From a virus (lineage: Duplodnaviria > Caudoviricetes), in IMG/VR virus record IMGVR_UViG_3300032038_000061, positions 7,259 to 71,258 of that record: a DNA stretch of 64,000 bases; one strand, written 5' to 3'. This document shows positions 8,329 to 60,877 of this stretch, in pieces. The position numbers and the translations under genes are program-made. The notes beneath the pieces were generated by a model, which had not been told where the DNA came from, ran no database searches, and worked only from the letters and a program-made list of their open reading frames with translations. Position 1 is the stretch's first letter, and every line of letters starts with the position of its first letter.

Positions 8329-9102
8329 ATGATAATACAAGCAATTGATAAAATTAATGTCGAGAACGATTCATTCGTTAAATTATTACTACATAACTCG
8401 GTGATGAATGATTATGTGTTTGAAAGATCATTCTTCATAATACATCTTATTCCTGATGATATAACAGATGTTCTGTATCGTAGATTGTACGAAGATTGTT
8501 ATTACAGAATGATTGATAAATCTGGATATAAAAAAGGTGTTTTTTATCTGAACATGACTGTTTCAGAAGCAATCGGTTTCATCAGAAGAGTGACACCGCC
8601 TATATTACAGGATAAAATCCCTGAAGCAATAAGGACTGTTGAAAGTATCTACGATCTCCTTAGATTGTTTTTAATGGAAGATAACAAAGACGGTCAACAT
8701 CAATACTATCTGTCTGAATTCAAAAGGTATATGTATTTAAATGAATATCCAACACAAACAAATTACAACACTGATAGAACATCTCTTCTGAGAATGAATA
8801 ATAAAGATGGAATAACAACTGATGTTGAAATATATTCTCCTTTGGTTGACGGATTCTTCTCAGGAAATATTGATAATGATAAATCATTTGATGTGCAGAT
8901 AATGTTTCATTTTAAAAACAAAAACCAAATTAAAGAAGTTTGTGAAAACGTATTACAACAATTCAAAACAAACAAAGTTCTCAATGTATTTTCAGATAAT
9001 GAGAATGGTTATTATTTGGAGATGTATTTTGAAAATTTTAATGCATCAATATATAAATGGATTATGGATTTGATAAAATTTAATTATAAAGATATAATAT
9101 AA
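8329..9102 (+). CDS. Hypothetical protein (257 aa)
   Basis: ORF with GGAGG SD. Confidence 0.75.
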   Translation: MIIQAIDKINVENDSFVKLLLHNSVMNDYVFERSFFIIHLIPDDITDVLYRRLYEDCYYRMIDKSGYKKGVFYLNMTVSEAIGFIRRVTPPILQDKIPEAIRTVESIYDLLRLFLMEDNKDGQHQYYLSEFKRYMYLNEYPTQTNYNTDRTSLLRMNNKDGITTDVEIYSPLVDGFFSGNIDNDKSFDVQIMFHFKNKNQIKEVCENVLQQFKTNKVLNVFSDNENGYYLEMYFENFNASIYKWIMDLIKFNYKDII

Positions 9103-18924: not shown

Positions 18925-19770
18925 GTGGTATTTATGGCAGAATTATTCGAGAAACAATTTAGATCTCGATTGAATTCATTACCTTTGGATTTCAAATGCG
19001 AACTCGGTGAAATACCTCTTCAAAAAGGTATGAGAGCAACATCTCGAAAGAATAAGGCAATCGAATTATTGAACAAATACTCGATTCCATTCATTGAATT
19101 AGGAACTGGAACAAACCGTTTCATTATAAGATATCAAGGTTATGCTCTCAAAATCGCTCTTGATAGAGAGGGAATAGCCGATAACAAACAGGAGTTTGCA
19201 ATATGTGAAGCGTTAATGCCAAATGTTGCATATGCCCATGAGATAAGCAGTGGAGGTCACCTTCTGGTGGCCTCTTATGCTCCTGCTTTTACATCTTACA
19301 ACGAAATGTGTTTTCATGCGACAGAAATAAAACGTATATTAGGTGAATGGAGTCAACGTTTTCTACTAGGTGATGTTGGTTTAACTCGAACTAACTATGC
19401 TAACTGGGGTTTATCACCCAATGGGAAACCGGTTTGCATTGATTATGCTTATATCTTTCCTGCGGGATTAGATTTGTTCAAATGTATATGTGGTAATAAG
19501 ACAATGACTTTTACTGATTATACATTCTCTACTTACAAATGTACTAAATGTGGTAAACATTATGAGGATAGAGAATTAAGAGCAAAAATATCTCAATCAG
19601 AAAGATTAAGATTGTTCAACAATGTTAAAGGTATCGAAATGCATAATGAATATGAAATGCATCCTGTCGATCCAAAATATATTAAACCAGAAACTAATCC
19701 AGATTATCCAGACCCATATACAACATCGATAAATGTTGCTGAACAACTCATGGGTATTGATTTCGGATGA
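18925..19770 (+). CDS. Protein-kinase-fold enzyme with a C-terminal Zn ribbon
   Basis: Gly loop ELGTGTNR, YALKIA (catalytic Lys), NKQEF (alphaC Glu), LGDVGLTRTNYAN (catalytic D...N), CIDYAY (DFG-like); CICG...CTKCG. Confidence 0.75.
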   Translation: MVFMAELFEKQFRSRLNSLPLDFKCELGEIPLQKGMRATSRKNKAIELLNKYSIPFIELGTGTNRFIIRYQGYALKIALDREGIADNKQEFAICEALMPNVAYAHEISSGGHLLVASYAPAFTSYNEMCFHATEIKRILGEWSQRFLLGDVGLTRTNYANWGLSPNGKPVCIDYAYIFPAGLDLFKCICGNKTMTFTDYTFSTYKCTKCGKHYEDRELRAKISQSERLRLFNNVKGIEMHNEYEMHPVDPKYIKPETNPDYPDPYTTSINVAEQLMGIDFG

Positions 19771-22087: not shown

Positions 22088-22110
22088 ATGGCGGGGATTA
22101 TCCCCGCCAT
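22088..22110 (+). terminator. Hairpin ATGGCGGGGATTATCCCCGCCAT, identical to 32822-32844
   Basis: Exact 23-nt duplicate; T-rich tail. Confidence 0.8.
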
Positions 22111-22162
22111 TATTTATTATTTTTTATAAATACATCATTAATATGATGAAAGGAGTGGTGTT

Positions 22163-23112: not shown

Positions 23113-26109
23113 ATGGCAGAAGAATACAGAAATCCTATGTCTGAATATTTATTCAAAATTCAAATGATTGTGTCTAACACAGAATTCAAGAATAAAGAAG
23201 AAGCAGATAAATATGAAACACTTAGATCAAGATTACAGGGTGATGCATATGTAAGAGCTATGACTAAAACAGATATGTTTGAATCGTATGAATATGATAC
23301 AAACGGTTTATACACTTTCTTGATTGAACAAGGTATTGATGAACAACGAGTAATGACATATATAAAATACAAACACATGATTCCTCATAATCTAAAGAGT
23401 GTATTGTTAATAAGAGCAAGAAAATCATTTATTAAACATTATTCAGAGCCCAATAAATATTATTTGAATTTATCAGGTAGACCATTAATAGGAACTGATG
23501 AAGTTGTATTATTACCAGATGAATTCTATTATCAATATGAAAGTGATATGGTATTAACACGTAATGAGCCATTACATAGTATACCAAGTAAATATCTTGA
23601 ATTATTTATCAATTCAGAATACTATGAAAAAACAATGAACGAACATCCTAATGCTACATATTTGAAATATCTTGGTAGTAATGGTATACCAATAGAGATA
23701 TCAAGAAAAGCTCGTGATGGAGATATCATGAGAGTTAATGAAAGTAAGTTATCAACATATCATCCAAAATTTGGTAATGTCAATGTTACTTCTGATTTGG
23801 TGCATGTTTATTGTGAAATATATAGAGAAACTCGAGATTATGTTTATCAAGCATTAAGAGGAGATTTCTCTTCAATATACCCAAACTATAATTCATTAAT
23901 TCGTTTTTTGACAATCTATATGTCCATTGGTAATGCTTTAAACGAATTTCAAAGAAAGTCAACAAAGTTGATATATATGAATAATATAACAGCACATAAT
24001 TTATTCATGTTATATGGATTGCCTTCTGTTATAATGGAAGGAACTCCAATGATTGAATTCCTTAAGAAATTTCGTTTGTTATTAATGGATAAAGGTACAA
24101 ATGTTGTATATCGAGTTAAAGATCTAATTGGTTATGAATATACAGATATCTATACACTCGTAATGGTTAAACAACAAGTATTCGAGAATGGTATTCCTAT
24201 ATATACATATGACAAAGAAACAGGTGAAAAGATTCCTGTACAAAATGTTTTCTTCCGTCGTTTAGGAACTACTGACGATAATACATCCTATTTCAAATTC
24301 AGAGATAGTAGAAAAGAATATACAGTTGAAGAAATAACTTCTGGAGACCCTAGATGGTGGAATACACCCGAAGTCAATTCAATGATTCAGGATATGAATT
24401 ATACATTATCCAATTCAAAATATATTCAATTATCAACACATATGTCTATGGCTGATGTATGGTGGGAATGTGTAATATTCATAAGAGGAATGTTGGATAA
24501 TAAGAATGAGACTGCATCAACGATGATTGATGTCAATTATAATATTAATGGAGGTTCATCAATGAGTTTATTCGATGCTGTATTGACTCTAGTTATATTG
24601 ATGAATTGGCATTCTGTTGATGCATATAATAATAACTTCAGAGGAGATATGTATGTAAACAATGGAAGATATAATGGTAAGATTGCATGTGTTGATATGT
24701 TATTCAATGGATTATATCCAGATAATAAACCAAATGAAGGAGATTATGGTGTTGCAATGCCATTATTACTCGGATTACCTTATAAGATATCTTCTTTTAA
24801 TTTTAATATATTGAATGAAGATCCATCATTTTATACATATCTTCGTACATGTACCTATCTTGAACCATCTACATTTATAATGATACTTGATAAAGTTCTC
24901 AATAGAGATAATGTCAATATAGGTGAAGCTTTAATGACTGATGCTAAATTGATATACAGATATCTTGAAACTAAGTTAAGAGCATCTCGAACGATTCAAC
25001 AATTCCGTCAAGTAACAGATGTATTCTCCAAATTATTCTTAGTAGAACCTGTGAGAGATTGGATTGATAATAATCTACTTAATACAGATGAAATGTTGAT
25101 GCAGTCATATGGAATATCATATCAAGAATTATCTTCATTAAAAACATTCTTTTCTGCAAAAGGAACTACAAATACAAGTGGATCAATTATTCCTGCAAAT
25201 CTGAATATTGTGTATGAAGGAACTATTTATCCTATATACATTTACAATGTCATGAATGAAGATGTGTATGAATTAGAAATCAATGGAAAATATCCATTCA
25301 GAGATAATGGTTTTGTAAAGGCATTTGGAGAAAAAATGCTTGAATTTATTTCATTGGATTTAGAAGGTTCTGGTATATCAGATTCAATAAAAGAGAATTA
25401 TCAAAACATAATAAAAGATAAAGTTGAACTTGAATTAGGTGGTTCTATTGATGGACCCAAGTCATTTGAACAACTATTATTCAGAAAAAACATCTCGTTG
25501 TATAAATATTTAATGAACACAAGAATTGATAATCCCGAAGGATTAATTTTGATAATGAGGGCTATCATTAAAGCTTTGGAAGATTATACAAATACTCCTT
25601 TAAATGGATTGCAGTTTAGAGCTTTAGGATATGAAGAATATTTCCGAATACTTAAAGAAGTAATATCTTATTTTAAATCATATATGGTTGAATTCACTAA
25701 AGAAGAATTTACATATATCTTTGATGGATTATTTGATAACGGTGGAAATTCAAATATGTTAAGGTTGTATGATGAAATGACTTCTGGTAATATAAGAATA
25801 ATACCAAAAGATTCATTAACATTGTTCGATGTAAGTTGTGCAGATGTACATTATCACATGCAGGAAGAAATGTCTTCTATGTATGATGATGCATTATTCA
25901 GAGTTAAATCTAAATATAAGAATTTGAAAAATACTGGATATGATATTTGGTATGATAATGGTAAAAAAATATCCAAAGAACCTTTAAATATAAATGACGA
26001 TACAGAAGTAGTAGCAAATATCGTTTCCGACGGTGTGGCATACAAAATAATCATCAATGGAAGAAATGTAAATACTATTCCTGATAATTATTATGGTAAT
26101 GCTTATTAA
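23113..26109 (+). CDS. Probable baseplate wedge protein (T4 gp7/P2 gpI-like), 998 aa
   Basis: LKKFRLLLMDKGTNVVYRVKDLIG resembles the KGT..ai..l...G signature of wedge proteins. Confidence 0.4.
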   Translation: MAEEYRNPMSEYLFKIQMIVSNTEFKNKEEADKYETLRSRLQGDAYVRAMTKTDMFESYEYDTNGLYTFLIEQGIDEQRVMTYIKYKHMIPHNLKSVLLIRARKSFIKHYSEPNKYYLNLSGRPLIGTDEVVLLPDEFYYQYESDMVLTRNEPLHSIPSKYLELFINSEYYEKTMNEHPNATYLKYLGSNGIPIEISRKARDGDIMRVNESKLSTYHPKFGNVNVTSDLVHVYCEIYRETRDYVYQALRGDFSSIYPNYNSLIRFLTIYMSIGNALNEFQRKSTKLIYMNNITAHNLFMLYGLPSVIMEGTPMIEFLKKFRLLLMDKGTNVVYRVKDLIGYEYTDIYTLVMVKQQVFENGIPIYTYDKETGEKIPVQNVFFRRLGTTDDNTSYFKFRDSRKEYTVEEITSGDPRWWNTPEVNSMIQDMNYTLSNSKYIQLSTHMSMADVWWECVIFIRGMLDNKNETASTMIDVNYNINGGSSMSLFDAVLTLVILMNWHSVDAYNNNFRGDMYVNNGRYNGKIACVDMLFNGLYPDNKPNEGDYGVAMPLLLGLPYKISSFNFNILNEDPSFYTYLRTCTYLEPSTFIMILDKVLNRDNVNIGEALMTDAKLIYRYLETKLRASRTIQQFRQVTDVFSKLFLVEPVRDWIDNNLLNTDEMLMQSYGISYQELSSLKTFFSAKGTTNTSGSIIPANLNIVYEGTIYPIYIYNVMNEDVYELEINGKYPFRDNGFVKAFGEKMLEFISLDLEGSGISDSIKENYQNIIKDKVELELGGSIDGPKSFEQLLFRKNISLYKYLMNTRIDNPEGLILIMRAIIKALEDYTNTPLNGLQFRALGYEEYFRILKEVISYFKSYMVEFTKEEFTYIFDGLFDNGGNSNMLRLYDEMTSGNIRIIPKDSLTLFDVSCADVHYHMQEEMSSMYDDALFRVKSKYKNLKNTGYDIWYDNGKKISKEPLNINDDTEVVANIVSDGVAYKIIINGRNVNTIPDNYYGNAY

Positions 26110-26143
26110 AAAAATAATGTAAATTTTATTATACATTATTTTA

Positions 26144-26321
26144 GATATCAGAGTTTGATAATGTGTAAGTTTTTTATTTTATGTAAATCACTTCTTAAAG
26201 TGACCTATTGTTGAACTGATTAGTCGGTTATCTGTTTTGATTGCGAATGGTATGTTGTGTGATGTTGTACTGCATTTATCATTCGTAATATTCTTTTTAG
26301 TATCTTTATTACTCTGATATC
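26144..26321. ncRNA. Candidate structured RNA unit 1 (178 nt, closed by an 11-bp terminal inverted repeat)
   Basis: GATATCAGAGT (26144) / ACTCTGATATC (26311); internal CGAATG/CATTCG stem; 19-nt hairpin shared with unit 2. Confidence 0.45.
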
Positions 26322-26372
26322 CAATTAAATAACATATTTAAAACAAAAAATAGATTTCTACTCATATTTGTA

Positions 26373-26631
26373 TGATGTCAAGAAGTAAGTAATCTATGTT
26401 AACCTCATATCGTAGATATTTTATATAGATCACTTCTTAAAGTGACCAACAGATGATCCAGTTATTACTGGTGAATCCTTTTTATTCTAAATCATTTCTA
26501 TAAAACGGATTTGTATTCTTAATGATTTTCATATCTTTGAAAGTGTTTATGTTATAAACACTTTCAGTTATAAAAGAATTCTTGTTCATGTATTCACCTC
26601 CTTTTTGTTATATTCTTACTTCTTGACATCA
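26373..26631. ncRNA. Candidate structured RNA unit 2 (259 nt, closed by a 17-bp terminal inverted repeat)
   Basis: TGATGTCAAGAAGTAAG (26373) / CTTACTTCTTGACATCA (26615); 13-bp internal hairpin TGAAAGTGTTTAT/ATAAACACTTTCA; shared ATCACTTCTTAAAGTGACC. Confidence 0.45.
26482..26589 (-). CDS. 35-aa small ORF MNKNSFITESVYNINTFKDMKIIKNTNPFYRNDLE inside RNA unit 2
   Basis: AAGGAGGTG SD with ATG 5 nt after it; hand-translated. Confidence 0.45.
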   Translation of the reverse strand: MNKNSFITESVYNINTFKDMKIIKNTNPFYRNDLE

Positions 26632-26668
26632 ATAAAAATATATGTTTAAAATAAAAAATATAGAATTA

Positions 26669-26691
26669 ATGTGGGGCTATAAGCCCCACAT
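26669..26691 (-). terminator. Hairpin ATGTGGGGCT-ATA-AGCCCCACAT, sbcC terminator
   Basis: Just downstream of the sbcC stop. Confidence 0.7.
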
Positions 26692-26699
26692 ATAATATT

Positions 26700-29222
26700 C
26701 TATTTTCTTGATATATCTATTGTATAAACTATATGGTCATACTGTCCAGGATTTAAGCTATGAGAAATCAAGAACAGTTGTTCCAATTTCAATGTAGCCA
26801 TCATCTCTTGAATCATCATTATGAATGAATCATGCATATATGAATCGAGATATGCATCTATTTCATCTATTAATGGACACCCATAATGAGTCAATATAGA
26901 TGCTAAAGATAATTCCAACGCTAATGAAAGTAAGGTGCTTTCACTTTGACTTCCATAACGGATATCATTTGATGTATGAGAACCACATCTGAAAGGTAAT
27001 GAAAATGTTGATTCGTCGATGGTTGGTGTCAACATCTCTATTTCTCCATCGTACATTATGTCCAATAATCTATTCGTCATCATAAGAGCTGTTTCAACAG
27101 TGTCTCTTATTGCAATAACAGGTTTTCCTTTTGTACTACTGGTTGCTTCTGCGATAACCTTGTACTTTTTATCATTTGATAAATGCTTTTCTATTTCAGC
27201 AACTGTGTTATTATATTGATTATATGAGTCTGATAGAAGCTTAACTTCGTTCATTACGATTGTTAATCTGGAATTTATCTCATTATACTGATTATTGTAT
27301 AATGATAAATCTTGTTCAGAATGAATGAGTTTATCATTCAATTCATTGAGTTGTTGATATCGTTTTTCCAGCTCTTCAGGATTCAGATGCTGTACCTGAG
27401 ATAACATCATTCGATGTTTATCATTGATATTGATTCTATCAGTAATACTGTTTATTTCAATATCTATTTGATTTACTTTATTTCTTAATTCATTTATTTG
27501 ATTATTGATGCTATTGATAGTTGAATCAGTGTCATCGATTGGCAATAACAGATCCTTCATGTTTTCAATAGTCTTTTCAATATTACTCAATTGAGAAATG
27601 TATTGAGTACGTTGTTCAATCTTAGCAGCTTCTTCCATGAGATATTGTACATACATTACATCGATACCAATTTTATTATTGACAAGATTCTTCATTATCG
27701 AAACTATGTTGAATATATCCTGTAATTCTTTTGGAAATTCTGTATTCAATAAACGATTAATTGTTTGCACGTTCTTATATGCATGATCAAGTTGTTCAAT
27801 ATCATATTGAGTAAACTTTGATTCTGATGCACTCTGATATGAACGAAAATATGTTTCTAATAATTCATGAGTTTTCCTATAGACACAATTTGGAAATACA
27901 CATTCCTTATCAACATGATCCCCATTAACAGAGTTTATCATACTTCTGATTCTTGATATTGTACTCTTTTCTTTTTCAGTATCCATAAGAATACTACCTT
28001 CTTGAATAAGGAATGCCGAAACATCAATTCCACGTTCAATCATTTCAGCAAACATCTTCAAATGTTTTTGATTCAAGGATGAAACGATTTCAACACAAGT
28101 ATCATTTATAACTTGACCTAAAGAAACCATGCTTTTGAAATATGATGATGAAGCAGATACTTCTATCTCGGGAACGATATTATCTATCTTTGAACATAAT
28201 TCATTCCTTAAATTAACCATGTTATTGTAATCATTAGAAGCACGTTTACTTGCCATTATTGTATTCTCGATATTATTCTTCTTATCATAAAGAATGTCGA
28301 TATCCTTTAGAATCATCAATCTATCATTCTTTAAATTACTCAAAGAATTATTTAGATCAATCTGTTCATTAACCAATTTATCATATGATTGATTATCAAA
28401 ACTACCAAGTTCTGATATTACATTTAAATATGAAGAACGTTTGTTGTTTACATCAATTAATTCATTATGGACATTTTGATTACGTATGATTGAAATCTGT
28501 CCTGATAACATTGCAATGTTTGATTTGATAGATTCAAGTTGTGTTGATAGATTATTACATTCCGTTTGTTTTTCCCGTAGCAGCATACATAAATTGTCAT
28601 ATGAACTATACTTGGAAAGAATAAATTCTTTTGTATTATTCAATGACGTAATTAGTTTGTTTGTATAACGATAGTCATCTGTTGCGAGTTTATGAATCTT
28701 ATCATATATATCTATACCCATGGCTTTATTCAACAGATTTTTACGTTGTGTAGTATTCATATTGGCAAACGAAGTTAACTGTGTTCCATTTATAATAAAT
28801 TGGAATACATACTTATTGATACCGAGTATCTTTTCAATAAGAGTGTTGAATACGTTAACACCACCGCTCGGATTGAGTTCAACCCCATCATGTATCAATG
28901 ATGATGTTATTGAATGTGATGATCGTGTTGGTTGATAGGTATGTGTTATTGTGTAGATTTCTCCATTAACATCATATACAATCTTCTTAACACCGATCTG
29001 TTTAGGAAGTATCAATGATAAGTCAGAGCGTTCATCACCATTAAGATTGATACTACTGAATGGATGAAGCTGTTGAATCAATACGGTTTTTCCACAACGG
29101 TTCTTACCGTATATCTGGATGATGGGTTTATTGATTTTATCGAATTCAAGTTCGATTTCTTTTAAACCCATCGCTGCATGTACACCTATAAAATTGACCA
29201 ATTTGATATATAATATCTTCAT
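26700..29222 (-). CDS. sbcC: SbcC/Rad50-like SMC-family ATPase
   Basis: GKNRCGKT Walker A, long coiled coil, degenerate signature YGSQSE, LIDEIDAYLD Walker B/D-loop, FLISH. Confidence 0.85.
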   Translation of the reverse strand: MKILYIKLVNFIGVHAAMGLKEIELEFDKINKPIIQIYGKNRCGKTVLIQQLHPFSSINLNGDERSDLSLILPKQIGVKKIVYDVNGEIYTITHTYQPTRSSHSITSSLIHDGVELNPSGGVNVFNTLIEKILGINKYVFQFIINGTQLTSFANMNTTQRKNLLNKAMGIDIYDKIHKLATDDYRYTNKLITSLNNTKEFILSKYSSYDNLCMLLREKQTECNNLSTQLESIKSNIAMLSGQISIIRNQNVHNELIDVNNKRSSYLNVISELGSFDNQSYDKLVNEQIDLNNSLSNLKNDRLMILKDIDILYDKKNNIENTIMASKRASNDYNNMVNLRNELCSKIDNIVPEIEVSASSSYFKSMVSLGQVINDTCVEIVSSLNQKHLKMFAEMIERGIDVSAFLIQEGSILMDTEKEKSTISRIRSMINSVNGDHVDKECVFPNCVYRKTHELLETYFRSYQSASESKFTQYDIEQLDHAYKNVQTINRLLNTEFPKELQDIFNIVSIMKNLVNNKIGIDVMYVQYLMEEAAKIEQRTQYISQLSNIEKTIENMKDLLLPIDDTDSTINSINNQINELRNKVNQIDIEINSITDRININDKHRMMLSQVQHLNPEELEKRYQQLNELNDKLIHSEQDLSLYNNQYNEINSRLTIVMNEVKLLSDSYNQYNNTVAEIEKHLSNDKKYKVIAEATSSTKGKPVIAIRDTVETALMMTNRLLDIMYDGEIEMLTPTIDESTFSLPFRCGSHTSNDIRYGSQSESTLLSLALELSLASILTHYGCPLIDEIDAYLDSYMHDSFIMMIQEMMATLKLEQLFLISHSLNPGQYDHIVYTIDISRK

Positions 29223-32818: not shown

Positions 32819-32847
32819 TTAATGGCGGGGATTATCCCCGCCATTAA
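32819..32847. terminator. Bidirectional terminator hairpin between convergent genes
   Basis: TTAATGGCGGGGATTATCCCCGCCATTAA, followed by a T-rich tract. Confidence 0.8.
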
Positions 32848-41933: not shown

Positions 41934-42003
41934 CTCCTTTCACATATATTATTTATATGGATAATAGAAATCCAGTCTATATCCGAATATAATGTGAAAG
42001 GAG
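41934..42003 (-). promoter_or_regulatory. Leader hairpin sequestering the SD of the 66-aa gene
   Basis: CTCCTTTCACAT (41934-41945) / ATGTGAAAGGAG (41992-42003) 12-bp inverted repeat; inner GGATA/TATCC stem. Confidence 0.55.
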
Positions 42004-44739: not shown

Positions 44740-46983
44740 TTATTCGTATTGTTTGAGTTGTTGTAATATTGGTAACAACTCCGAGAACATTTGAAACAGT
44801 CTGTCTATATCCCCATCAGTCAGACCTTCAAATGTATTAGTTTGTTTCATTTGCGTAAAGAAGTCTATCATGTCGATAACCTGTCCACATTTGAATTCTT
44901 GATATTGTAGATAATACGAATGCATTATCAGACAATATCTGAGATCGGGTATCGAGATATTTATCTTTACATTGTTTATCATGACTTCAAATAATTCGTC
45001 TTCATTACCAATTGTCGAGTAACCAAAGATGTCGGGTTTGAGTTTAGCACCCATAAATTTTAAGATATTCTTGAGATTAGAAAGTTGTGGGAATTGGTTG
45101 TATTTAGACGTATCTATACCAATACCATTTAACTGACTCATCAGCACAGAATTATCTTCATATTGTGAACCTCTATAGTATGTCGAAATCTTCGCAAAAG
45201 CCTTTACACCAACACCTGCAAGGAAGTTGTAAGTGTCATATTCTCCATATTTAACAGGGTTGTCGGAATAAGGGATAAGGTTCTTATTATATCTACGGGT
45301 CTTAACAGGTAAATCATAAAGAGTTGTACGACCTGTAGCAACTCCTGATAATGCCTTTGATGGTTCTTGTTTCAATACCCATGTATATTGATAACCTACC
45401 GGATATTCACCGTCAACAGGTACCCAACGATGACGAAGTTTCGTGTATATCTTATAGGGTTTCATTATGTCTCCCCATTTTTTATAACACTCTAACAGAG
45501 CATCACGAACACATACTTCGTTAAGAGGCATTATCTGGATATAGAATCCATTCTTCAACAAATCCGCATATGTTGATTCTGAATCCTCTCGATATAATCT
45601 CTTTAATTCAGAACCCTGTGAAGGATTAAATGTTCCTATGAATTCTGATGCTAAATCGATTATATACTCACGTGGTTGATTTTCTTTGTCAAGTTGGATT
45701 ATATGTTGATGCATACGTTCCATCATAAATGTCATAGAAGATTCGTATGTTGCAAATGCAATGATTCTATTTACGATAGCCAACGCATTACAAACCATAT
45801 CAATCGGTCTACCATCATCAGTCTTTGGCATGAGTTGCCATGGAATAATTTGTGCAATAACTGACTTATTACCATATCTACCAACCACTTTCTGTCCAAC
45901 ATGAATGTCCTTTGGTTGTAATATAGTAAACTTAATTATTGTATCTACAATATCTTCTTTAGTAACCCAAGTAGAATTATTGAGATACTTTTCAGCTTGG
46001 TGATAGATATCAAGTAATGTTGTATCATCCTGATTTGGGTCAGATACGATTGTTGAAATAAATGAATATATCTCAGAATACCAATCTCGGATTTGGTTGA
46101 GATAATAGTTAAGTTGATCATTCTCAATATCGACGTTTGTATAGATATCCATATCGACAACCATGCCATGTGAACAGTAGTTTGTGTCATTAATATGAGG
46201 AATAGATGCTTCAGCTACTGATGATACTACACTATTCTCACGGATAGCACATAATACATCATTCTGAATTTCTTCTCCAATATTAGGAAAGGCTTTGTAA
46301 ACAGTGTCATTACCGTACTTATTCAACAGATAAGAATCTGATTTGATGTTGACAGTGACAATATCAACCATATCATATTTCAATGCTTCAGCAGCTCGGT
46401 CAGATATGACAAGGGCATCCTCAGTCAGTTCAGGAAGCACGGTATATACGAATCTGATATTACGTCCAGCACAATAGTTGTCATTAACATAAGATGATGA
46501 TTGAGCAATAGTAGTTCCCTTAGGTAAGATATCACCGTCATTATATTTACCAGCGATATTATTATACATTCGGAAACCATATTTCTCAACAAGGTTGTGT
46601 GCAGGTTCTACGACTTCACATATATACTTACCCGTACGCATATTGCGGAAGATATATGCAACAGGAGATATATTCGAGTCTTTGAACTTACGGAAGGTTT
46701 TGATGAGTTGATAGTCATCTTTTGCCTTTATATTCCAAGAGGATCTATCACCAAAGTTATTCTCAGCTCCAGTATACACCCTTGGGAATTCGGGGTCTGT
46801 TAATACGACACGTTGTGATGTGTGACGTGTTGCCATAACACCACGAACTGTCGATATTTTGTCAGGAAATGCCATTGCAGAAGCACCAAACATTGACATT
46901 GGTGTTACTTCTTGACATCTCTTCTCGATGTCCGAGACGTTGTTCATTGTGGAATGTTTACGTATTCTTTTAGACTGTTCCAT
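44740..46983 (-). CDS. rpoB: Phage multisubunit RNA polymerase beta subunit, C-terminal half
   Basis: ELTEDALVIS, VGQKVVGRYGNKSVI, MPKTDDGRPIDMVCNALAIVNR, VLKQEPSK, PVKYGEYD. Confidence 0.9.
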   Translation of the reverse strand: MEQSKRIRKHSTMNNVSDIEKRCQEVTPMSMFGASAMAFPDKISTVRGVMATRHTSQRVVLTDPEFPRVYTGAENNFGDRSSWNIKAKDDYQLIKTFRKFKDSNISPVAYIFRNMRTGKYICEVVEPAHNLVEKYGFRMYNNIAGKYNDGDILPKGTTIAQSSSYVNDNYCAGRNIRFVYTVLPELTEDALVISDRAAEALKYDMVDIVTVNIKSDSYLLNKYGNDTVYKAFPNIGEEIQNDVLCAIRENSVVSSVAEASIPHINDTNYCSHGMVVDMDIYTNVDIENDQLNYYLNQIRDWYSEIYSFISTIVSDPNQDDTTLLDIYHQAEKYLNNSTWVTKEDIVDTIIKFTILQPKDIHVGQKVVGRYGNKSVIAQIIPWQLMPKTDDGRPIDMVCNALAIVNRIIAFATYESSMTFMMERMHQHIIQLDKENQPREYIIDLASEFIGTFNPSQGSELKRLYREDSESTYADLLKNGFYIQIMPLNEVCVRDALLECYKKWGDIMKPYKIYTKLRHRWVPVDGEYPVGYQYTWVLKQEPSKALSGVATGRTTLYDLPVKTRRYNKNLIPYSDNPVKYGEYDTYNFLAGVGVKAFAKISTYYRGSQYEDNSVLMSQLNGIGIDTSKYNQFPQLSNLKNILKFMGAKLKPDIFGYSTIGNEDELFEVMINNVKINISIPDLRYCLIMHSYYLQYQEFKCGQVIDMIDFFTQMKQTNTFEGLTDGDIDRLFQMFSELLPILQQLKQYE

Positions 46984-48319: not shown

Positions 48320-50170
48320 CTAATCCATCTCGATCAAGTTTATTTGAGTATTGCTGAGCCTTCGAGATACTTGGAAAAGCAAAGTTCCTCCAATATCGGT
48401 TACGGGAATAAATGGTTCATGACGTGCACATTTAGGACAATTAACATTTTCAACTCTAAATGTTACAGGAGATGCATTTTCCCTGCTCTTTTCAATTATT
48501 TTTACGAGTACACTTGAATCAACGACATCAAGAGATTTAGTAATGATTCTTTCCATATCATCCCAGTTAGTATAGAGATACTCTTTGGGTTTACCATTTT
48601 CATCATTCTTTATAAATGAGAATGATTTTACATACATGATGTTTGCAGAGAGATATTCAAACTCAGCAAGAGCGGGATCATCAGGTGCTAAGTTAGTCAT
48701 ATCATCTTCTCTGTATTTCTTATACAATTCCTGAACCATTGGAATCTTTTCTGTAATGAATTCATATGCTGATGGTTCATTTGTTTCAACAATAATACCG
48801 GTATGAGGAAGTTTATATCTAACCTTTTTGGTATTAACTTCATTGAATATTTTAATAGCATCTTCACCATAAGAAGCTTCATGTACACGATTATACCACT
48901 TAGGTATCTTTGATTCATCGAGCTTTACAATAGTTCTTGGATGATATGGTATTCTTATATTATATTTACATTTGGGATTTCCACATGTAATAGAGAGATT
49001 CTCTTCATCATCAGCAGTTGCAACAAGAAGACCCCACATGAGAAGTTCTCTATCGTAATACTTTGTTTTCTTAAGGAAATCATCAAAGTCTTTAAATGGT
49101 CCAATAGAAACATTTTTCATGTGTTCATATATAACAGACCATCTCTTGAGTTCGTTATCAGGACTATTATTGGAAGATGGAGCTGTTAGTTTAATAAAAT
49201 CAAACCAGTTGATTGCTCTCATGACACATCTGTATCCTGATAGAGGTAATGTGATAGGAGTATCATTGATGCCTGAATCATATGGTATGATAATACCTTC
49301 TTCTGCACTGTTCTCAACAATAGTTGTTTTCATCATCTCTTCTTGAGATACTTCTTTTACAACAATATTGATTTCATTTCCAGTTGCTAAATTCTGTACA
49401 ACAGAATCATCAATATTTACAGTAACAGGAGTATTCTGTTCTACTTGAATATTGATTGTTGGTACATCTGGTTTTAATTCAACTGGTTCTGAATTATTAT
49501 CTGAATTAGCTGTATTACCATTTGATGTATTGGCTGCTTCTGTAGGTTGTGAAAACATGAGTTTATCAATTACAATACCATCATCATTGATATTATCAAT
49601 TGCTTTTGTTCCATCAGGCATTATCCAGTTATTCAGAATGATATCTTCAAATTCAGGAGTTATCTTTTCACCTGAATTATGATAGATGTCTATAAGCTCA
49701 CCCTTCACAGCCATTTGTCCTAATGAAACTGTATATCCATTATTATCAACAACAGGTGCTTCTGGGATACCACCAGAAATCATCCTGTATTTAGCAACAA
49801 CTTTCTGTACCATTGTTGTTACAATAGACAACTTCTCACTCTGATATCCAATAGCTTGTTCATTATAAGACATATCTTTCTCATTTGGAGGATTGAATAT
49901 CTTAAAAGAAGCTGCTTCTTTTCTTTCAGCTTCTTTTTCTTTTAATGCAGTCTCTCTTTCTACCTGTGATTGTTTTTCTTCTTCAGCAATCTGATTAGCA
50001 AAGTCATCATCACCATAGAAATCTTCATTAGATATAGTATTTGGGATTGGTGTAGTTTCACCAACACTACTTGATTCTATTACTGGTTCGGGTTCATTTC
50101 TACCCATGACTGCTTTATGTCTTGTGATAAGATCTGTCAATGGATCAGCATTTTTATTAATCTCTGACAT
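48320..50170 (-). CDS. Probable tail/baseplate hub assembly chaperone (T4 gp26-like) with a long acidic N-terminal extension
   Basis: DRELLMWGL...ITCGNPKC and VNCPKC Zn motifs; lies downstream of sheath and tube on the same strand. Confidence 0.5.
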   Translation of the reverse strand: MSEINKNADPLTDLITRHKAVMGRNEPEPVIESSSVGETTPIPNTISNEDFYGDDDFANQIAEEEKQSQVERETALKEKEAERKEAASFKIFNPPNEKDMSYNEQAIGYQSEKLSIVTTMVQKVVAKYRMISGGIPEAPVVDNNGYTVSLGQMAVKGELIDIYHNSGEKITPEFEDIILNNWIMPDGTKAIDNINDDGIVIDKLMFSQPTEAANTSNGNTANSDNNSEPVELKPDVPTINIQVEQNTPVTVNIDDSVVQNLATGNEINIVVKEVSQEEMMKTTIVENSAEEGIIIPYDSGINDTPITLPLSGYRCVMRAINWFDFIKLTAPSSNNSPDNELKRWSVIYEHMKNVSIGPFKDFDDFLKKTKYYDRELLMWGLLVATADDEENLSITCGNPKCKYNIRIPYHPRTIVKLDESKIPKWYNRVHEASYGEDAIKIFNEVNTKKVRYKLPHTGIIVETNEPSAYEFITEKIPMVQELYKKYREDDMTNLAPDDPALAEFEYLSANIMYVKSFSFIKNDENGKPKEYLYTNWDDMERIITKSLDVVDSSVLVKIIEKSRENASPVTFRVENVNCPKCARHEPFIPVTDIGGTLLFQVSRRLSNTQINLIEMD

Positions 50171-57995: not shown

Positions 57996-58099
57996 ATAAG
58001 AGAGAAGATAAATTGTTATGTCGGGAGGATTATACCGATCATCCAGTTAGAGTTATCCATGAGATCACCGCTTTTCTGAATGGATTTCTTCTCTCTTAT
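57996..58099 (-). promoter_or_regulatory. Structured 5' leader closed by a 13-bp stem
   Basis: ATAAGAGAGAAGA / TCTTCTCTCTTAT inverted repeat just downstream of the promoter motif GTATATATTATT (58117-58106). Confidence 0.55.
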
Positions 58100-59308: not shown

Positions 59309-60820
59309 TTAAGATTCTTTTTGTTTAGTAAGAGCATATAATCCATTAAGACATTCTATTTTAACCTCATATACAGTATCACAACTTGGTTTGATATTGT
59401 ATATCTTAGAATACATTAATTCTTCCGCACGTTTATTAGCCTCATCAGACCATATACCAATACTCTTTACGGTATCACCATCATAGTCACCACCAATAGC
59501 AACGAGTCTACTGTTTGAAGGAGTAATTACATCAACAAATGATGTTGAAACACGTCCATGTGGTAAATCAGGATCTATGTTTGGATAAGTATTATAGGTT
59601 TCTCCATTGAATTCAATCTTAACAGTATCGACAGTTGATAATATATGTACTTTTGTAAAGAAAGCACCTAAGTAAGTACCAATAGGATATCGAACAGTAT
59701 AAACCATTCTATCAGATCTTATGATGGCATCATAGCAGCATAAATAAATTGCATCAGTTAATGTCAATGGACGTGTCTTAGTTTCATTCTTTGTTAAATC
59801 CAAATATTCCATCATAATAGGAAGGGTGTTTTCTGGGTCAAGATATAGTTTTCTAAAACGAGAACCTGGGTTATTTAGAAATATATCAATTAAATCTTCA
59901 ATCATTTTATTATCATAAATATTCGAAATATTATTTGATTTAACTTCACTTGGATTATTATGAATATTTTGAATATTTGAAAATGATAAGAATTGTTGCA
60001 TGTAATACTTGACAAATGGTTTGAACATTGCAACACAAGAGATCAATGGATATCCTGTACGATAGATTCCTATATTGGGAGTATCTGTGTTATAACGTGG
60101 GGCTGATATAACGTTTCTTACAGTAAACATAGTTGTTTTTGCAAGTAGATGTTTTTGAAAGAACCCATTCTTTGAACCAACATAATCATGAATGTAAGTA
60201 TATATATTCATAACAGCATCTTGGAATTTTGCATAAACCTGATAAACATTTGATGTTGTATGAGCTGTTACACTCTTCAATCCTAAGATATGCATATACA
60301 AGGAATTCAATTCATTCTTAACCTGTTTACCATTTCTAACACCAACAGGACGGAATTCAGGTGGTAATACTAATACTTTATCATTGAATATTAATCTCTT
60401 TGGAGATTTAGTTAAGATATCTATATTCTGTGATGTACGAGTATTGAGAGTCTTCCTTATATCAATCTGCTCCCATATATCATATAAGTCTTTTAAACCA
60501 CAATACTTACCTTCTTTATCAGCAACCAGGACACCATCAACAATATTACATTTAGTCTCTCCATAAGCCATCTTACGTATAATACCGCCTGAACGTGAAA
60601 TTATTGTTTTCGCAACATCAGGATTGAAAACATGTACAGGTAGTTTTATATAACCACATCTGTATTTTCTTTCTTCAGTTGTCTGACCAAATATCTCTTC
60701 AGAAAAAAGACCTTGTGAATTAAACAAGTTTTGTGCTCTGTAGATCTGTTGAGATGTTACTTCTTTCAAATCGTTTGTTTTTATAAAACGATCAATATCA
60801 AATAATTCAATAACTTTCAT
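59309..60820 (-). CDS. rpoC: Phage multisubunit RNA polymerase beta' subunit, N-terminal part with the catalytic motif
   Basis: GLFSEEIFG, VLPPEFRP, KNGFFQKHLLAKTTMFTVRNVIS, VRYP, GGDYDGD (NADFDGD equivalent). Confidence 0.9.
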   Translation of the reverse strand: MKVIELFDIDRFIKTNDLKEVTSQQIYRAQNLFNSQGLFSEEIFGQTTEERKYRCGYIKLPVHVFNPDVAKTIISRSGGIIRKMAYGETKCNIVDGVLVADKEGKYCGLKDLYDIWEQIDIRKTLNTRTSQNIDILTKSPKRLIFNDKVLVLPPEFRPVGVRNGKQVKNELNSLYMHILGLKSVTAHTTSNVYQVYAKFQDAVMNIYTYIHDYVGSKNGFFQKHLLAKTTMFTVRNVISAPRYNTDTPNIGIYRTGYPLISCVAMFKPFVKYYMQQFLSFSNIQNIHNNPSEVKSNNISNIYDNKMIEDLIDIFLNNPGSRFRKLYLDPENTLPIMMEYLDLTKNETKTRPLTLTDAIYLCCYDAIIRSDRMVYTVRYPIGTYLGAFFTKVHILSTVDTVKIEFNGETYNTYPNIDPDLPHGRVSTSFVDVITPSNSRLVAIGGDYDGDTVKSIGIWSDEANKRAEELMYSKIYNIKPSCDTVYEVKIECLNGLYALTKQKES

Positions 60821-60877
60821 TATATCATTCCTTTCGATAATTAAAATTATCTCCTCGTTTTATAAAATATGAATGTT

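What the first reader, a model, noticed from the sequence alone, without database searches (positions are those of the whole stretch)
26129..26662. Two tandem paralogous closed-end structured cassettes in a 590-bp gap between convergent genes
Seen: unit 1 (26144-26321) and unit 2 (26373-26631) are each closed by their own terminal inverted repeat (11 bp and 17 bp) with different sequences, so the structure is kept while the sequence diverges. Both carry an identical 19-nt hairpin ATCACTTCTTAAAGTGACC (26187, 26429) preceded by TATTTTAT, and both are followed by a similar AT-rich block (26322-26350 vs 26631-26662). Unit 2 encodes a 35-aa ORF on the - strand whose GGTGAAT SD region can pair with ATTCACC just past its stop. 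A + strand promoter motif lies at 26129-26140. G-U pairing favours + for unit 1's outer stems but - for the shared hairpin. Inference: sense/antisense regulated small RNAs reminiscent of Firmicutes type I toxin-antitoxin mRNAs (though the peptide is not hydrophobic), a new sRNA family, or a DNA-level element such as an origin.
Basis: partly seen in the sequence, partly recalled or inferred. Interest (0 to 1): 0.7.

Follow-up and report, generated by a model that had tools for sequence, protein, structure and literature searches.

The report
Closed mini-cassettes in jumbo-phage variable slot
The two "closed" units look like small accessory cassettes on the minus strand of a jumbo phage, each with a weak phage-type early promoter and a helix joining its two ends; one carries a 35-residue gene, and a related phage has several cassettes built the same way.

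Summary
The repeats are real. The 17-bp inverted repeat of unit 2 is the longest long-range one in the window (0 of 1000 shuffles reach it). The 19-mer occurs only twice.

The window is part of a jumbo phage that encodes its own multisubunit RNA polymerase. In 15 relatives, the junction between the SbcC-like gene and the 998-aa gene is hypervariable. It holds 30 nt to 2 kb of unrelated small genes. Each is led by a motif matching the published AR9 early (virion-polymerase) promoter, AAATATATATTAT-N6-G.

The "AT-rich blocks" are degenerate minus-strand copies of that promoter. The closing helices begin at or near the predicted transcription start. A start-proximal helix recurs at this promoter class across the clade.

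Units 1 and 2 share only two modules: the promoter block, and the hairpin plus its A-rich tail. Their interiors are unrelated. Unit 2 has a canonical ribosome-binding site and a 35-aa ORF with gene-like codon usage and no detectable homologue.

One complete relative has at least four dispersed cassettes with the same layout: promoter, 5' arm, micro-ORF of 17-41 aa, hairpin, 3' arm.

Type I toxin-antitoxin, replication origin, MITE and known RNA families are not supported. Transcription is inferred, not shown.

The parts
26669..26691 (.). G+C-rich hairpin (ATGTGGGGCT-ATA-AGCCCCACAT). It terminates the SbcC-like gene and is probably bidirectional. Relatives have a hairpin of the same type at the same place.
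26632..26665 (-). It has TTCTATATTTTTT upstream and AAACATATATTTT, which matches 11 of 13 positions of the AR9 early consensus. The nearest G residues (26630, 26627) are not at the canonical 6-nt spacing.
26615..26631 (-). Unit 2 5' arm (TGATGTCAAGAAGTAAG). It starts at or next to the predicted transcription start and pairs 17/17 with 26373-26389.
26594..26602 (-). Shine-Dalgarno AGGAGGTGA, 4 nt upstream of the ATG. This 9-mer occurs only twice in the window. The same extended form is used by slot genes of relatives.
26482..26589 (-). 35-aa ORF (MNKNSF...NDLE), not hydrophobic. Codon usage is gene-like. No homologue among 1.84 billion representative proteins. The identical protein occurs in a second sample.
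26538..26566 (.). Perfect 13-bp hairpin inside the ORF. It is longer than any perfect hairpin in the window's other coding regions.
26471..26477 (-). ATTCACC just past the stop codon, able to pair with the GGTGAAT of the SD region (a possible anti-SD).
26417..26447 (-). Shared 3' module, copy 2: hairpin GGTCACTT-TAAG-AAGTGATC followed by TATATAAAATA. There is no U-tract on either strand.
26373..26389 (-). Unit 2 3' arm (CTTACTTCTTGACATCA on the minus strand).
26323..26354 (-). Unit 1 promoter-like block: TCTATTTTTTG upstream, then TTAAATATGTTAT (9 of 13 consensus positions), 6 nt, then G at 26322 as the predicted start. PWM core rank is 22 of 128,000.
26311..26324 (-). Unit 1 5' arm (TTGGATATCAGAGT). 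The predicted start G at 26322 lies at the base of the helix.
26175..26205 (-). Shared 3' module, copy 1 (29 of 31 identical to copy 2).
26141..26154 (-). Unit 1 3' arm (ACTCTGATATCTAA on the minus strand).
26111..26142 (.). A+T-rich 11-bp hairpin. On the minus strand its 3' arm runs into a stretch of seven T. It is a weak terminator-like site between unit 1 and the end of the 998-aa gene.

Best explanation
The gap holds two tandem accessory mini-cassettes, read on the minus strand. They sit in a hypervariable slot between a conserved SbcC-like gene and a conserved 998-aa gene of a jumbo phage that makes its own AR9/phiKZ-type RNA polymerases.

**Layout of each cassette:**
1. A degenerate early (virion-polymerase type) promoter.
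2. A 5' arm starting at or beside the transcription start.
3. A cargo.
4. A shared 3' module: an 8-bp hairpin plus an A-rich tail.
5. A 3' arm that pairs with the 5' arm.

Unit 2's cargo is a ribosome-binding site and a 35-aa gene. Unit 1 has no ribosome-binding site and is either a non-coding relative or a decayed copy.

**Likely mechanism (inferred):** early transcripts fold so that their two ends are locked in a 13-17-bp helix. This hides the 5' end from 5' exonuclease attack and delimits the RNA, perhaps as a processing stalk for a double-strand-specific RNase. The SD of unit 2 may be masked inside the fold. The repeated promoter and 3' modules also give homology for recombination, which moves or duplicates such cassettes.

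**Shown:** the anatomy, the promoter kinship, the variability of the slot, the clade-wide start-proximal helix, and the same architecture in a relative.

**Inferred:** transcription, strand, RNA-level function and translation.
For: **Phage type.** The window is a fragment of a virus record. It encodes a phage RNA polymerase beta subunit, a PhuZ-like tubulin and an SbcC-like protein. The nearest database phages are the Staphylococcus jumbo phages and Yersinia phiR1-37.

**A variable slot.** In 15 relatives the SbcC-like and roughly 1000-aa genes are adjacent, convergent in 14. The gap between them ranges from 30-50 nt to about 2 kb and holds unrelated small genes.

**The promoter motif.** Those genes are led by TTCCTATTATTTT-N8-ATATATATATTATTAATATG. 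This matches the AR9 early promoter AAATATATATTAT-N6-G(+1) (PMC5312081). A PWM built without the gap ranks the two AT-rich blocks 12th and about 46th of 128,000 positions, both on the minus strand. They align in register with the relatives' promoters.

**The start-proximal helix.** Across 31 other instances of this promoter, the 22 nt around the start have a better downstream complement than shuffles do: 35% reach p <= 0.05, Fisher combined p = 2e-9. Unit 2 scores z = -9.0 and unit 1 z = -5.8.

**Modular structure.** Only the two modules are alike between the units. The interiors, spacers and arms are at chance similarity.

**The ORF.**
- AGGAGGTGA occurs only twice in the window.
- Codon score is 0.144 per codon, reached by only 4% of spurious ORFs and at the 27th percentile of real genes.
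- The same protein is called in a second sample with the same spacing to the 998-aa gene.

**The same architecture elsewhere.** The complete relative G002 (231 kb) has cassettes at 2425, 50150, 165972 and 166837. They share a promoter, 5' arm and SD; carry micro-ORFs of 23, 17, 41 and 41 aa; and share a hairpin, spacer and 3' arm giving a 23-26-bp closing helix. The fold z-score of one copy is -11.3. The two 41-aa ORFs are 61% identical with the frame kept.
Against: - **Degenerate promoter copies.** Unit 2 lacks a G at the canonical spacing. Its block also scores on the plus strand (core rank 24). AR9's virion polymerase is reported to be intolerant of single deviations.
- **No terminator between the units.** There is none between unit 2 and unit 1, and only a weak A+T-rich one after unit 1.
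- **Nothing conserved outside this phage.** The 19-mer and the arms are absent from IMG/VR, from JGI metagenomes (one chance hit) and from five relatives' genomes. There is no orthologue covariation.
- **A hairpin inside the ORF.** A 13-bp perfect hairpin lies within it, which is unusual for coding sequence.
- **Both strands fold well.** Perfect inverted repeats fold equally on either strand, so an RNA-level role cannot be separated from a DNA-level one.
- **Limited spread of the architecture.** Long-range closure was found in only two lineages. Three other relatives' genomes show only short-loop hairpins.
Confidence: 0.5

Rival explanations
1. The units are non-functional relics. They are the decaying remains of gene cassettes that once sat in this slot, with dead promoters and a leftover translation start. 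The inverted repeats are left over from start-proximal hairpins.
For: - Both promoter copies deviate from consensus, with PWM scores of 1.7 and -7.1 against 20-55 for clear instances.
- Unit 1 has lost any SD.
- The slot gains and loses content freely.
- There are no homologues of the ORF or the repeats.
Against: - Decay should be uniform. Instead, a 31-nt block is 94% identical while its neighbours are at chance similarity.
- The 17/17 helix is perfect across 225 nt.
- The ORF keeps gene-like codon usage and a perfect SD.
- The same arrangement is present in a second sample.
Confidence: 0.2
2. The inverted repeats work at the DNA level. They mark cassette ends for recombination, excision or copying, in a mini-transposon-like or integron-like way, and any RNA pairing is incidental.
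For: - In G002, cassettes with near-identical ends and different cargo are dispersed at 2.4, 50 and 166-167 kb. One has a 26-bp perfect inverted repeat.
- The arms in the window are perfect Watson-Crick pairs, which fits DNA as well as RNA.
- In T4-type phages, repeated regulatory cassettes mediate shuffling and form mini-circles (PMC2839356).
Against: - The arms of units 1 and 2 differ in sequence, so one recombinase site is not shared.
- There are no target-site duplications.
- The left arm always abuts the promoter, so the element is asymmetric.
- One G002 copy has a change that stays paired only as G-U on the promoter strand.
- No recombinase gene was noted beside either locus; neighbours were scanned only in part.
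Confidence: 0.15
3. The units are structured non-coding early RNAs, and the 35-aa ORF is incidental. The closed multi-hairpin RNAs themselves would be the product, for example a decoy or a protein sponge.
For: - Strong fold z-scores on the minus strand: -7.7 for unit 2 and -5.2 for unit 1.
- A 13-bp hairpin lies inside the ORF.
- Unit 1 has no ORF with an SD.
- The conserved block is a hairpin.
Against: - The z-scores are driven by perfect repeats and are nearly as strong on the plus strand.
- There is no Rfam match.
- The SD, the ATG and gene-like codons argue for translation.
- The analogous G002 cassettes carry ORFs conserved at the protein level.
Confidence: 0.1
4. This is a type I toxin-antitoxin-like sense/antisense pair, or a replication origin.
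For: - The long-range 5'-3' pairing and possible SD masking resemble type I toxin mRNAs.
- There is a sigma-70-like TTGACA-18-TAAAAT on the plus strand at 26623-26652.
- The sequence is A+T-rich with many hairpins.
Against: - The peptide is polar, not a membrane helix.
- The count of promoter-like hits is below shuffle expectation, 13 against 16. The plus-strand site would transcribe only into the terminator.
- This phage type does not rely on host polymerase (own knowledge).
- The slot is empty in L007, L024 and L028, so it is not an essential origin.
- There are no iterons and no skew switch beyond the change of gene strand.
Confidence: 0.05

Closest known systems
AR9-type early promoters of jumbo phages (virion RNA polymerase; AAATATATATTAT-N6-G+1; PMC5312081)
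   Same: The clade's motif ATATATATATTAT-TAATAT-G matches the published consensus, including the 6-nt spacing to a G start. It heads many genes in the window and in relatives. The two AT-rich blocks are weaker copies of it.
   Different: The clade adds an upstream CTATTATTTT element and, typically, a helix beginning at the start site. The two copies in the gap deviate at several positions, and one lacks the G at the right spacing. No polymerase assay exists for this clade.
PeSL regulatory cassettes of T4-type phages (PMC2839356, PMC4122927)
   Same: Repeated small regulatory modules (promoter plus stem-loop) lie between small orphan genes in hyperplastic regions. Neighbouring phages differ by gain, loss and swapping of the genes between them.
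   Different: PeSLs use sigma-70-like promoters, and their stem-loop is an upstream terminator. Here the promoter is of the phage-polymerase type, and the helix joins the start of the transcript to its end, enclosing the cargo. Mini-circles were not tested.
5'-terminal stem-loop mRNA stabilisers of Firmicutes and their phages (e.g. aprE leader, SP82 early RNA; own knowledge, not checked here)
   Same: A helix beginning within a few nucleotides of the 5' end, on early phage transcripts in an SD-rich, low-G+C setting.
   Different: Known stabilisers are local hairpins. In units 1 and 2 the partner lies 156 and 225 nt downstream, at the end of the unit. The host and its RNases are unknown.
Type I toxin mRNAs of Firmicutes (fst, txpA, bsrG)
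   Same: A small ORF, a long-range 5'-3' interaction and possible SD sequestration.
   Different: The peptide is not hydrophobic. No antitoxin RNA gene was found. The context is a phage accessory slot with promoters for a phage polymerase.
rRNA-type processing stalks and T7 early RNase III sites (own knowledge)
   Same: Complementary flanks that bring the two ends of an RNA unit together could let a double-strand RNase cut units out of a longer transcript.
   Different: The helices are 13-17 bp here and 23-26 bp in G002. No cleavage data exist, and each unit also has its own promoter.

Membership tests
AR9-type early (virion RNA polymerase) promoter | 13-nt A+T-rich consensus AAATATATATTAT | tested here: inconclusive
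   Unit 2 has AAACATATATTTT (11 of 13). Unit 1 has TTAAATATGTTAT (9 of 13). PWM full ranks are 12 and 46 of 128,000, against 1-10 for clear sites.
AR9-type early (virion RNA polymerase) promoter | G start 6 nt downstream of the consensus | tested here: inconclusive
   Met for unit 1 (G at 26322). Not met for unit 2, where the G residues fall 4 and 7 nt after the consensus.
AR9-type early (virion RNA polymerase) promoter | Early transcription by a virion polymerase, independent of protein synthesis | not testable with these tools
   There are no expression data. A phage polymerase beta-subunit gene is present.
PeSL-type shuffling cassette | Repeated promoter/stem-loop modules flanking orphan genes in a region that varies between close relatives | tested here: met
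   Slot content varies from 0 to 4 genes in 15 relatives. The promoter module is duplicated around a gene in L008. Modules are repeated around different cargo in G002 and in the window.
PeSL-type shuffling cassette | Sigma-70-like promoter with an upstream terminator stem-loop | tested here: not met
   The promoter is of the phage-polymerase type. There is no terminator between units 2 and 1.
Type I toxin-antitoxin | Small hydrophobic membrane-active peptide | tested here: not met
   The peptide MNKNSFITESVYNINTFKDMKIIKNTNPFYRNDLE is polar and N/K-rich.
Type I toxin-antitoxin | Overlapping or adjacent antisense RNA gene with its own promoter | tested here: inconclusive
   The only candidate is a plus-strand sigma-70-like site running into the terminator. 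The number of such sites is below shuffle expectation.
MITE / small transposon | Same terminal inverted repeats in all copies, flanked by target-site duplications | tested here: not met
   The arms of the two units are at chance similarity. No duplicated flanks are present. The 15-nt matches of the arms elsewhere in the window are at background frequency, with 67 such runs in 64 kb.
Known RNA families (Rfam 15) | Covariance-model match at the gathering score | tested here: not met
   No family reaches threshold in the window. The best hit in the gap has E = 8.2. No tRNA or tmRNA was found.
Replication origin | Conserved position in relatives, with iterons | tested here: not met
   The slot is 30-50 nt in L007, L024 and L028. 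No direct-repeat family has more than two copies.

The most novel reading that the evidence does not exclude
Some jumbo phages of this clade may carry a so far undescribed kind of accessory element, a "closed micro-gene cassette". It would be an autonomous early-promoter unit whose transcript is locked end to end by a 13-26-bp helix starting at the transcription start. It would carry a micro-protein of about 17-41 residues plus a conserved 3' hairpin, and would duplicate or move within the genome by way of its conserved end modules. There are at least four copies in one relative and two in this phage. The locked ends could serve RNA stability, processing or even circularisation.
Probability: 0.3. 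Interest if true: 0.6.

Novelty: new variant of a known kind. Interest (0 to 1): 0.45.

Why it matters
If the reading holds, three things follow.

- The AR9-type early promoter extends to a large, uncultured clade of jumbo phages from metagenomes. This gives a practical way to mark their early genes.
- Early transcripts of the clade would start, as a rule, inside a helix.
- The clade's accessory slots would be filled by very small self-contained units carrying micro-proteins that gene callers mostly miss. Early micro-proteins of jumbo phages are plausible host-takeover or counter-defence factors, and their end-locked RNA would be an unusual design.

If the units are relics, the finding is ordinary genome turnover in a variable slot.

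Tried and rejected
**Searches that found nothing**
- DNA similarity of the gap to 50,697 phage records: none.
- The 998-aa protein against phage records: none.
- The 19-mer in IMG/VR: none. In five relatives' genomes: none.
- The 19-mer in JGI metagenomes: one hit in unrelated, ORF-poor DNA, judged to be chance.
- The 35-aa peptide against 1.84 billion representative proteins: only itself. Against four relatives' genomes: nothing.
- The 132-aa slot gene of the closest relatives has no remnant in the gap.
- No similarity between units 1 and 2 and the G002 cassettes.

**Leads dropped after a control**
- The 15-nt matches of the arms to coding sequence at 46905 and 49838 first looked like antisense targets. 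There are 67 such runs in the window, so they are at background frequency.
- A first test for long-range pairing at promoters, using random genome positions as controls, showed no general enrichment. It was redone with shuffled downstream sequence.

- The exact SbcC-like protein could not be looked up.
- One literature search was mis-typed; another found no description of this architecture.

Full report
**What is in the sequence.** The gap between the 998-aa gene (23113-26109, plus strand) and the 840-aa gene (26700-29222, minus strand) is 590 nt, from 26110 to 26699.
- a 40-nt direct repeat at 26175 and 26417, with a 19-nt identical core;
- a 31-nt A+T-rich direct repeat at 26322 and 26630, 81% identical;
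- a 17/17 inverted repeat at 26373-26389 / 26615-26631;
- a 13/14 inverted repeat at 26141-26154 / 26311-24.

The 19-mer has two copies in the window and none within three mismatches elsewhere (expected 0.03). The whole 71-kb contig also has only two.

The 17-bp repeat is the longest perfect long-range inverted repeat in the window. None of 1000 dinucleotide shuffles of the gap reaches 17. An 11-bp core like unit 1's appears in 19% of shuffles. Both units fold far better than shuffles on both strands, with z from -3.6 to -7.7, as perfect inverted repeats must.

**Where the window comes from.** It is a fragment of a virus record estimated to be 26% complete. It encodes a phage-type RNA polymerase beta subunit, a large terminase, a DnaB-like helicase, a chaperonin, a PhuZ-like tubulin and an SbcC-like ATPase, which is the 840-aa gene. 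The nearest sequenced phages, at about 24-35% protein identity, are the Staphylococcus jumbo phages and Yersinia phiR1-37. These belong to the group that transcribes with its own virion and non-virion multisubunit polymerases (PMC5312081). No Rfam family, tRNA or tmRNA is found.

**The gap is a variable slot.** The SbcC-like protein has hundreds of relatives at 59-73% identity in metagenomes, on contigs of 230-290 kb. I looked at 15 related loci. In 14 the SbcC-like gene and the roughly 1000-aa gene are convergent neighbours; one is rearranged. What lies between them differs widely:
- 30-50 nt with a single G+C-rich hairpin in L007, L024 and L028;
- one 132-aa gene in the closest relatives, L003 and L005;
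- one to four unrelated genes across 0.45-2 kb elsewhere.

None of these genes has a remnant in the window's gap. The identical 35-aa protein is called in a second sample, on an 8-kb contig with the same 372-nt distance to the 998-aa gene. The arrangement is therefore not an assembly artefact.

**The AT-rich blocks are promoter copies on the minus strand.** In relatives, each slot gene follows a conserved stretch with consensus TTCCTATTATTTT-N8-ATATATATATTATTAATATGAAT. This matches the early promoter of phage AR9, AAATATATATTAT-(6N)-G+1, which that paper attributes to the virion polymerase.

I built a weight matrix from 15 clear instances, none from the gap. It finds correctly oriented sites in front of many genes in the window. 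The two AT-rich blocks rank 12th (unit 2) and about 46th (unit 1) of 128,000 positions, both on the minus strand.

Unit 1 matches 9 of 13 consensus positions and has a G at the right spacing, at 26322. Unit 2 matches 11 of 13, but its nearest G residues are 4 and 7 nt downstream rather than 6. Its block also scores on the plus strand. So both copies are degenerate, and AR9's polymerase is reported to be sensitive to single changes.

Four other points favour the minus strand for unit 2:
- the upstream T-rich element sits right after the SbcC terminator, as in relatives;
- the initially transcribed sequence resembles that of L003 (AAGAAG core);
- the ribosome-binding site and ORF lie downstream;
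- its block is similar to unit 1's block.

**The closing helices begin at the transcription start, and that is a clade habit.** In L003 the promoter's start region pairs with a segment 19 nt downstream. L016, L015, L019, L021, L008 and L010 have hairpins of the same kind built from different sequences.

I then tested this against dinucleotide shuffles of the downstream 300 nt. The 22 nt around the predicted start of 31 other promoter instances find a better complement than expected: 35% reach p <= 0.05, mean z is -1.8, and the Fisher combined p is 2e-9. Unit 2 (z = -9.0) and unit 1 (z = -5.8) are among the strongest. Short-loop versions are visible at most promoters in three further relatives' genomes.

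What is unusual in the window is the distance to the partner: 156 and 225 nt. A third case lies at 58099/57996, a 13-bp helix enclosing 78 nt of the leader of a 143-aa gene.

**The units are modular, not whole duplicates.** I compared them segment by segment on the minus strand. The 31-nt hairpin-plus-tail block is 29/31 identical (z = 9.9). The promoter block is moderately alike (z = 2.2). The interiors, the spacers and both arms are no more alike than shuffles. So each unit keeps its own self-complementary ends around unrelated cargo, between two shared modules.

The shared hairpin has no U-tract after it on either strand, so it is not a standard terminator. The G-U pairs that extend it work only on the minus strand.

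**The 35-aa ORF is probably real.**
- AGGAGGTGA, 4 nt from the ATG, occurs only twice in the window, and slot genes of relatives use the same extended form.
- The codon score of 0.144 per codon is reached by only 4% of 199 spurious ORFs of similar length. It sits at the 27th percentile of real 35-codon windows.
- Against this, the ORF has no homologue and contains a 13-bp perfect hairpin, longer than any in the other coding regions.

Unit 1 has no ribosome-binding site.

**The same architecture elsewhere.** In L011, directly after the SbcC terminator, an early promoter is followed in order by:
- a 5' arm that includes the start;
- a ribosome-binding site and a 23-aa ORF;
- an 11-bp hairpin and a spacer;
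- a 3' arm giving a 23-bp closing helix.

The next promoter comes straight after. Its fold z-score is -11.3.

I read the whole 231-kb genome of that phage, G002. It holds further copies at 50150, 165972 and 166837, plus partial ones. Their promoter, 5' arm, ribosome-binding site and 3' module are 95-100% alike, while the cargo differs (ORFs of 17, 41 and 41 aa). The cassettes are dispersed at 2.4, 50 and 166-167 kb.

The two 41-aa ORFs are 61% identical at the protein level and 72% at the DNA level, with equal length and six synonymous differences. The short ORFs share EDG-IIIPDEV-CG. There is no sequence similarity to the window's units, and the G002 arm sequence occurs in no other IMG/VR record. 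So the likeness is of design, not descent. Three other relatives lack long-range versions.

**Reading.** The best fit is two tandem accessory mini-cassettes on the minus strand. They are built on the clade's early-promoter and start-helix module, and the helix is stretched to enclose the cargo.

How it works is inference. One possibility is that locking the 5' end in a helix protects early RNA in a Firmicute-like host; this rests on my knowledge of 5' stabilisers, which I did not check here. Another is that the helix delimits units cut from longer transcripts. The repeated end modules also provide homology for the gain, loss and copying seen in this slot, as described for PeSL cassettes in T4-type phages.

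The main rivals are plain decay of old cassettes and a DNA-level role for the inverted repeats. Type I toxin-antitoxin, replication origin, MITE and known RNA families fail their defining tests (see the membership table).

**Limits.**
- There are no expression data.
- There are no orthologues of the units, so no true covariation.
- Only 26% of this phage's genome is available.
- The promoter matrix was partly trained on four sites from this window, though none from the gap.
- The p-values are limited by 200 shuffles, and two of the 31 instances are duplicates.

Noticed in passing
window 58116-57975 (minus strand): A strong early-promoter match (the best in the window) is followed by a leader whose ends pair in a 13-bp perfect helix (58099-58087 with 58008-57996). 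The helix encloses 78 nt, and the SD of a 143-aa gene follows directly. This is a third end-locked element in this phage.
   Followed up: partly
window-wide, e.g. 42512(-), 47054(-), 20286(+), 22129(+), 17421(+), 9150(+), 29245(+): An AR9-type early promoter motif, usually with an upstream CTATTATTTT element, precedes many genes on both strands. It could be used to mark the early genes of this uncultured clade.
   Followed up: partly
window 22088-22112 and 32822-32846: Two identical 25-nt G+C-rich terminator hairpins (ATGGCGGGGATTATCCCCGCCATTA) lie 10.7 kb apart. This is the longest exact distant repeat in the window.
   Followed up: no
L008:4501-8235 and L024:4501-8485: In two relatives the SbcC-like gene spans about 3.7-4.0 kb instead of 2.5 kb. 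The last ~50 residues match far downstream, which suggests an intervening sequence such as an intron, an intein or an inserted gene.
   Followed up: no
G002 (contig of L011) at 19476, 19784, 38433, 86520, 95642, 138773, 203846: There are seven dispersed copies of an early promoter with the same initially transcribed sequence (TTATATTGAGGACAGTGATAGGAATG). This is a second repeated promoter-led family in that phage.
   Followed up: no
G002 165640-167200 (L038): A cluster of early-promoter units lies here. Two are end-locked cassettes carrying paralogous 41-aa ORFs. A 75-aa gene sits between them, and a 16-aa ORF related to the 17-aa cargo at 50150 also lies here.
   Followed up: partly
window 41934-42003 and 60779-60867: These are the only other perfect long-range inverted repeats of 12 bp or more in the window (12 bp with a 46-nt spacer; 13 bp with a 63-nt spacer). 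Both are intergenic. The first covers the SD of a small gene.
   Followed up: no
L008:8287-8390 and 8880-8985: A near-identical promoter-plus-leader module of about 70 nt is duplicated on either side of a 127-aa slot gene. This is the arrangement expected if such modules mediate cassette gain and loss.
   Followed up: no
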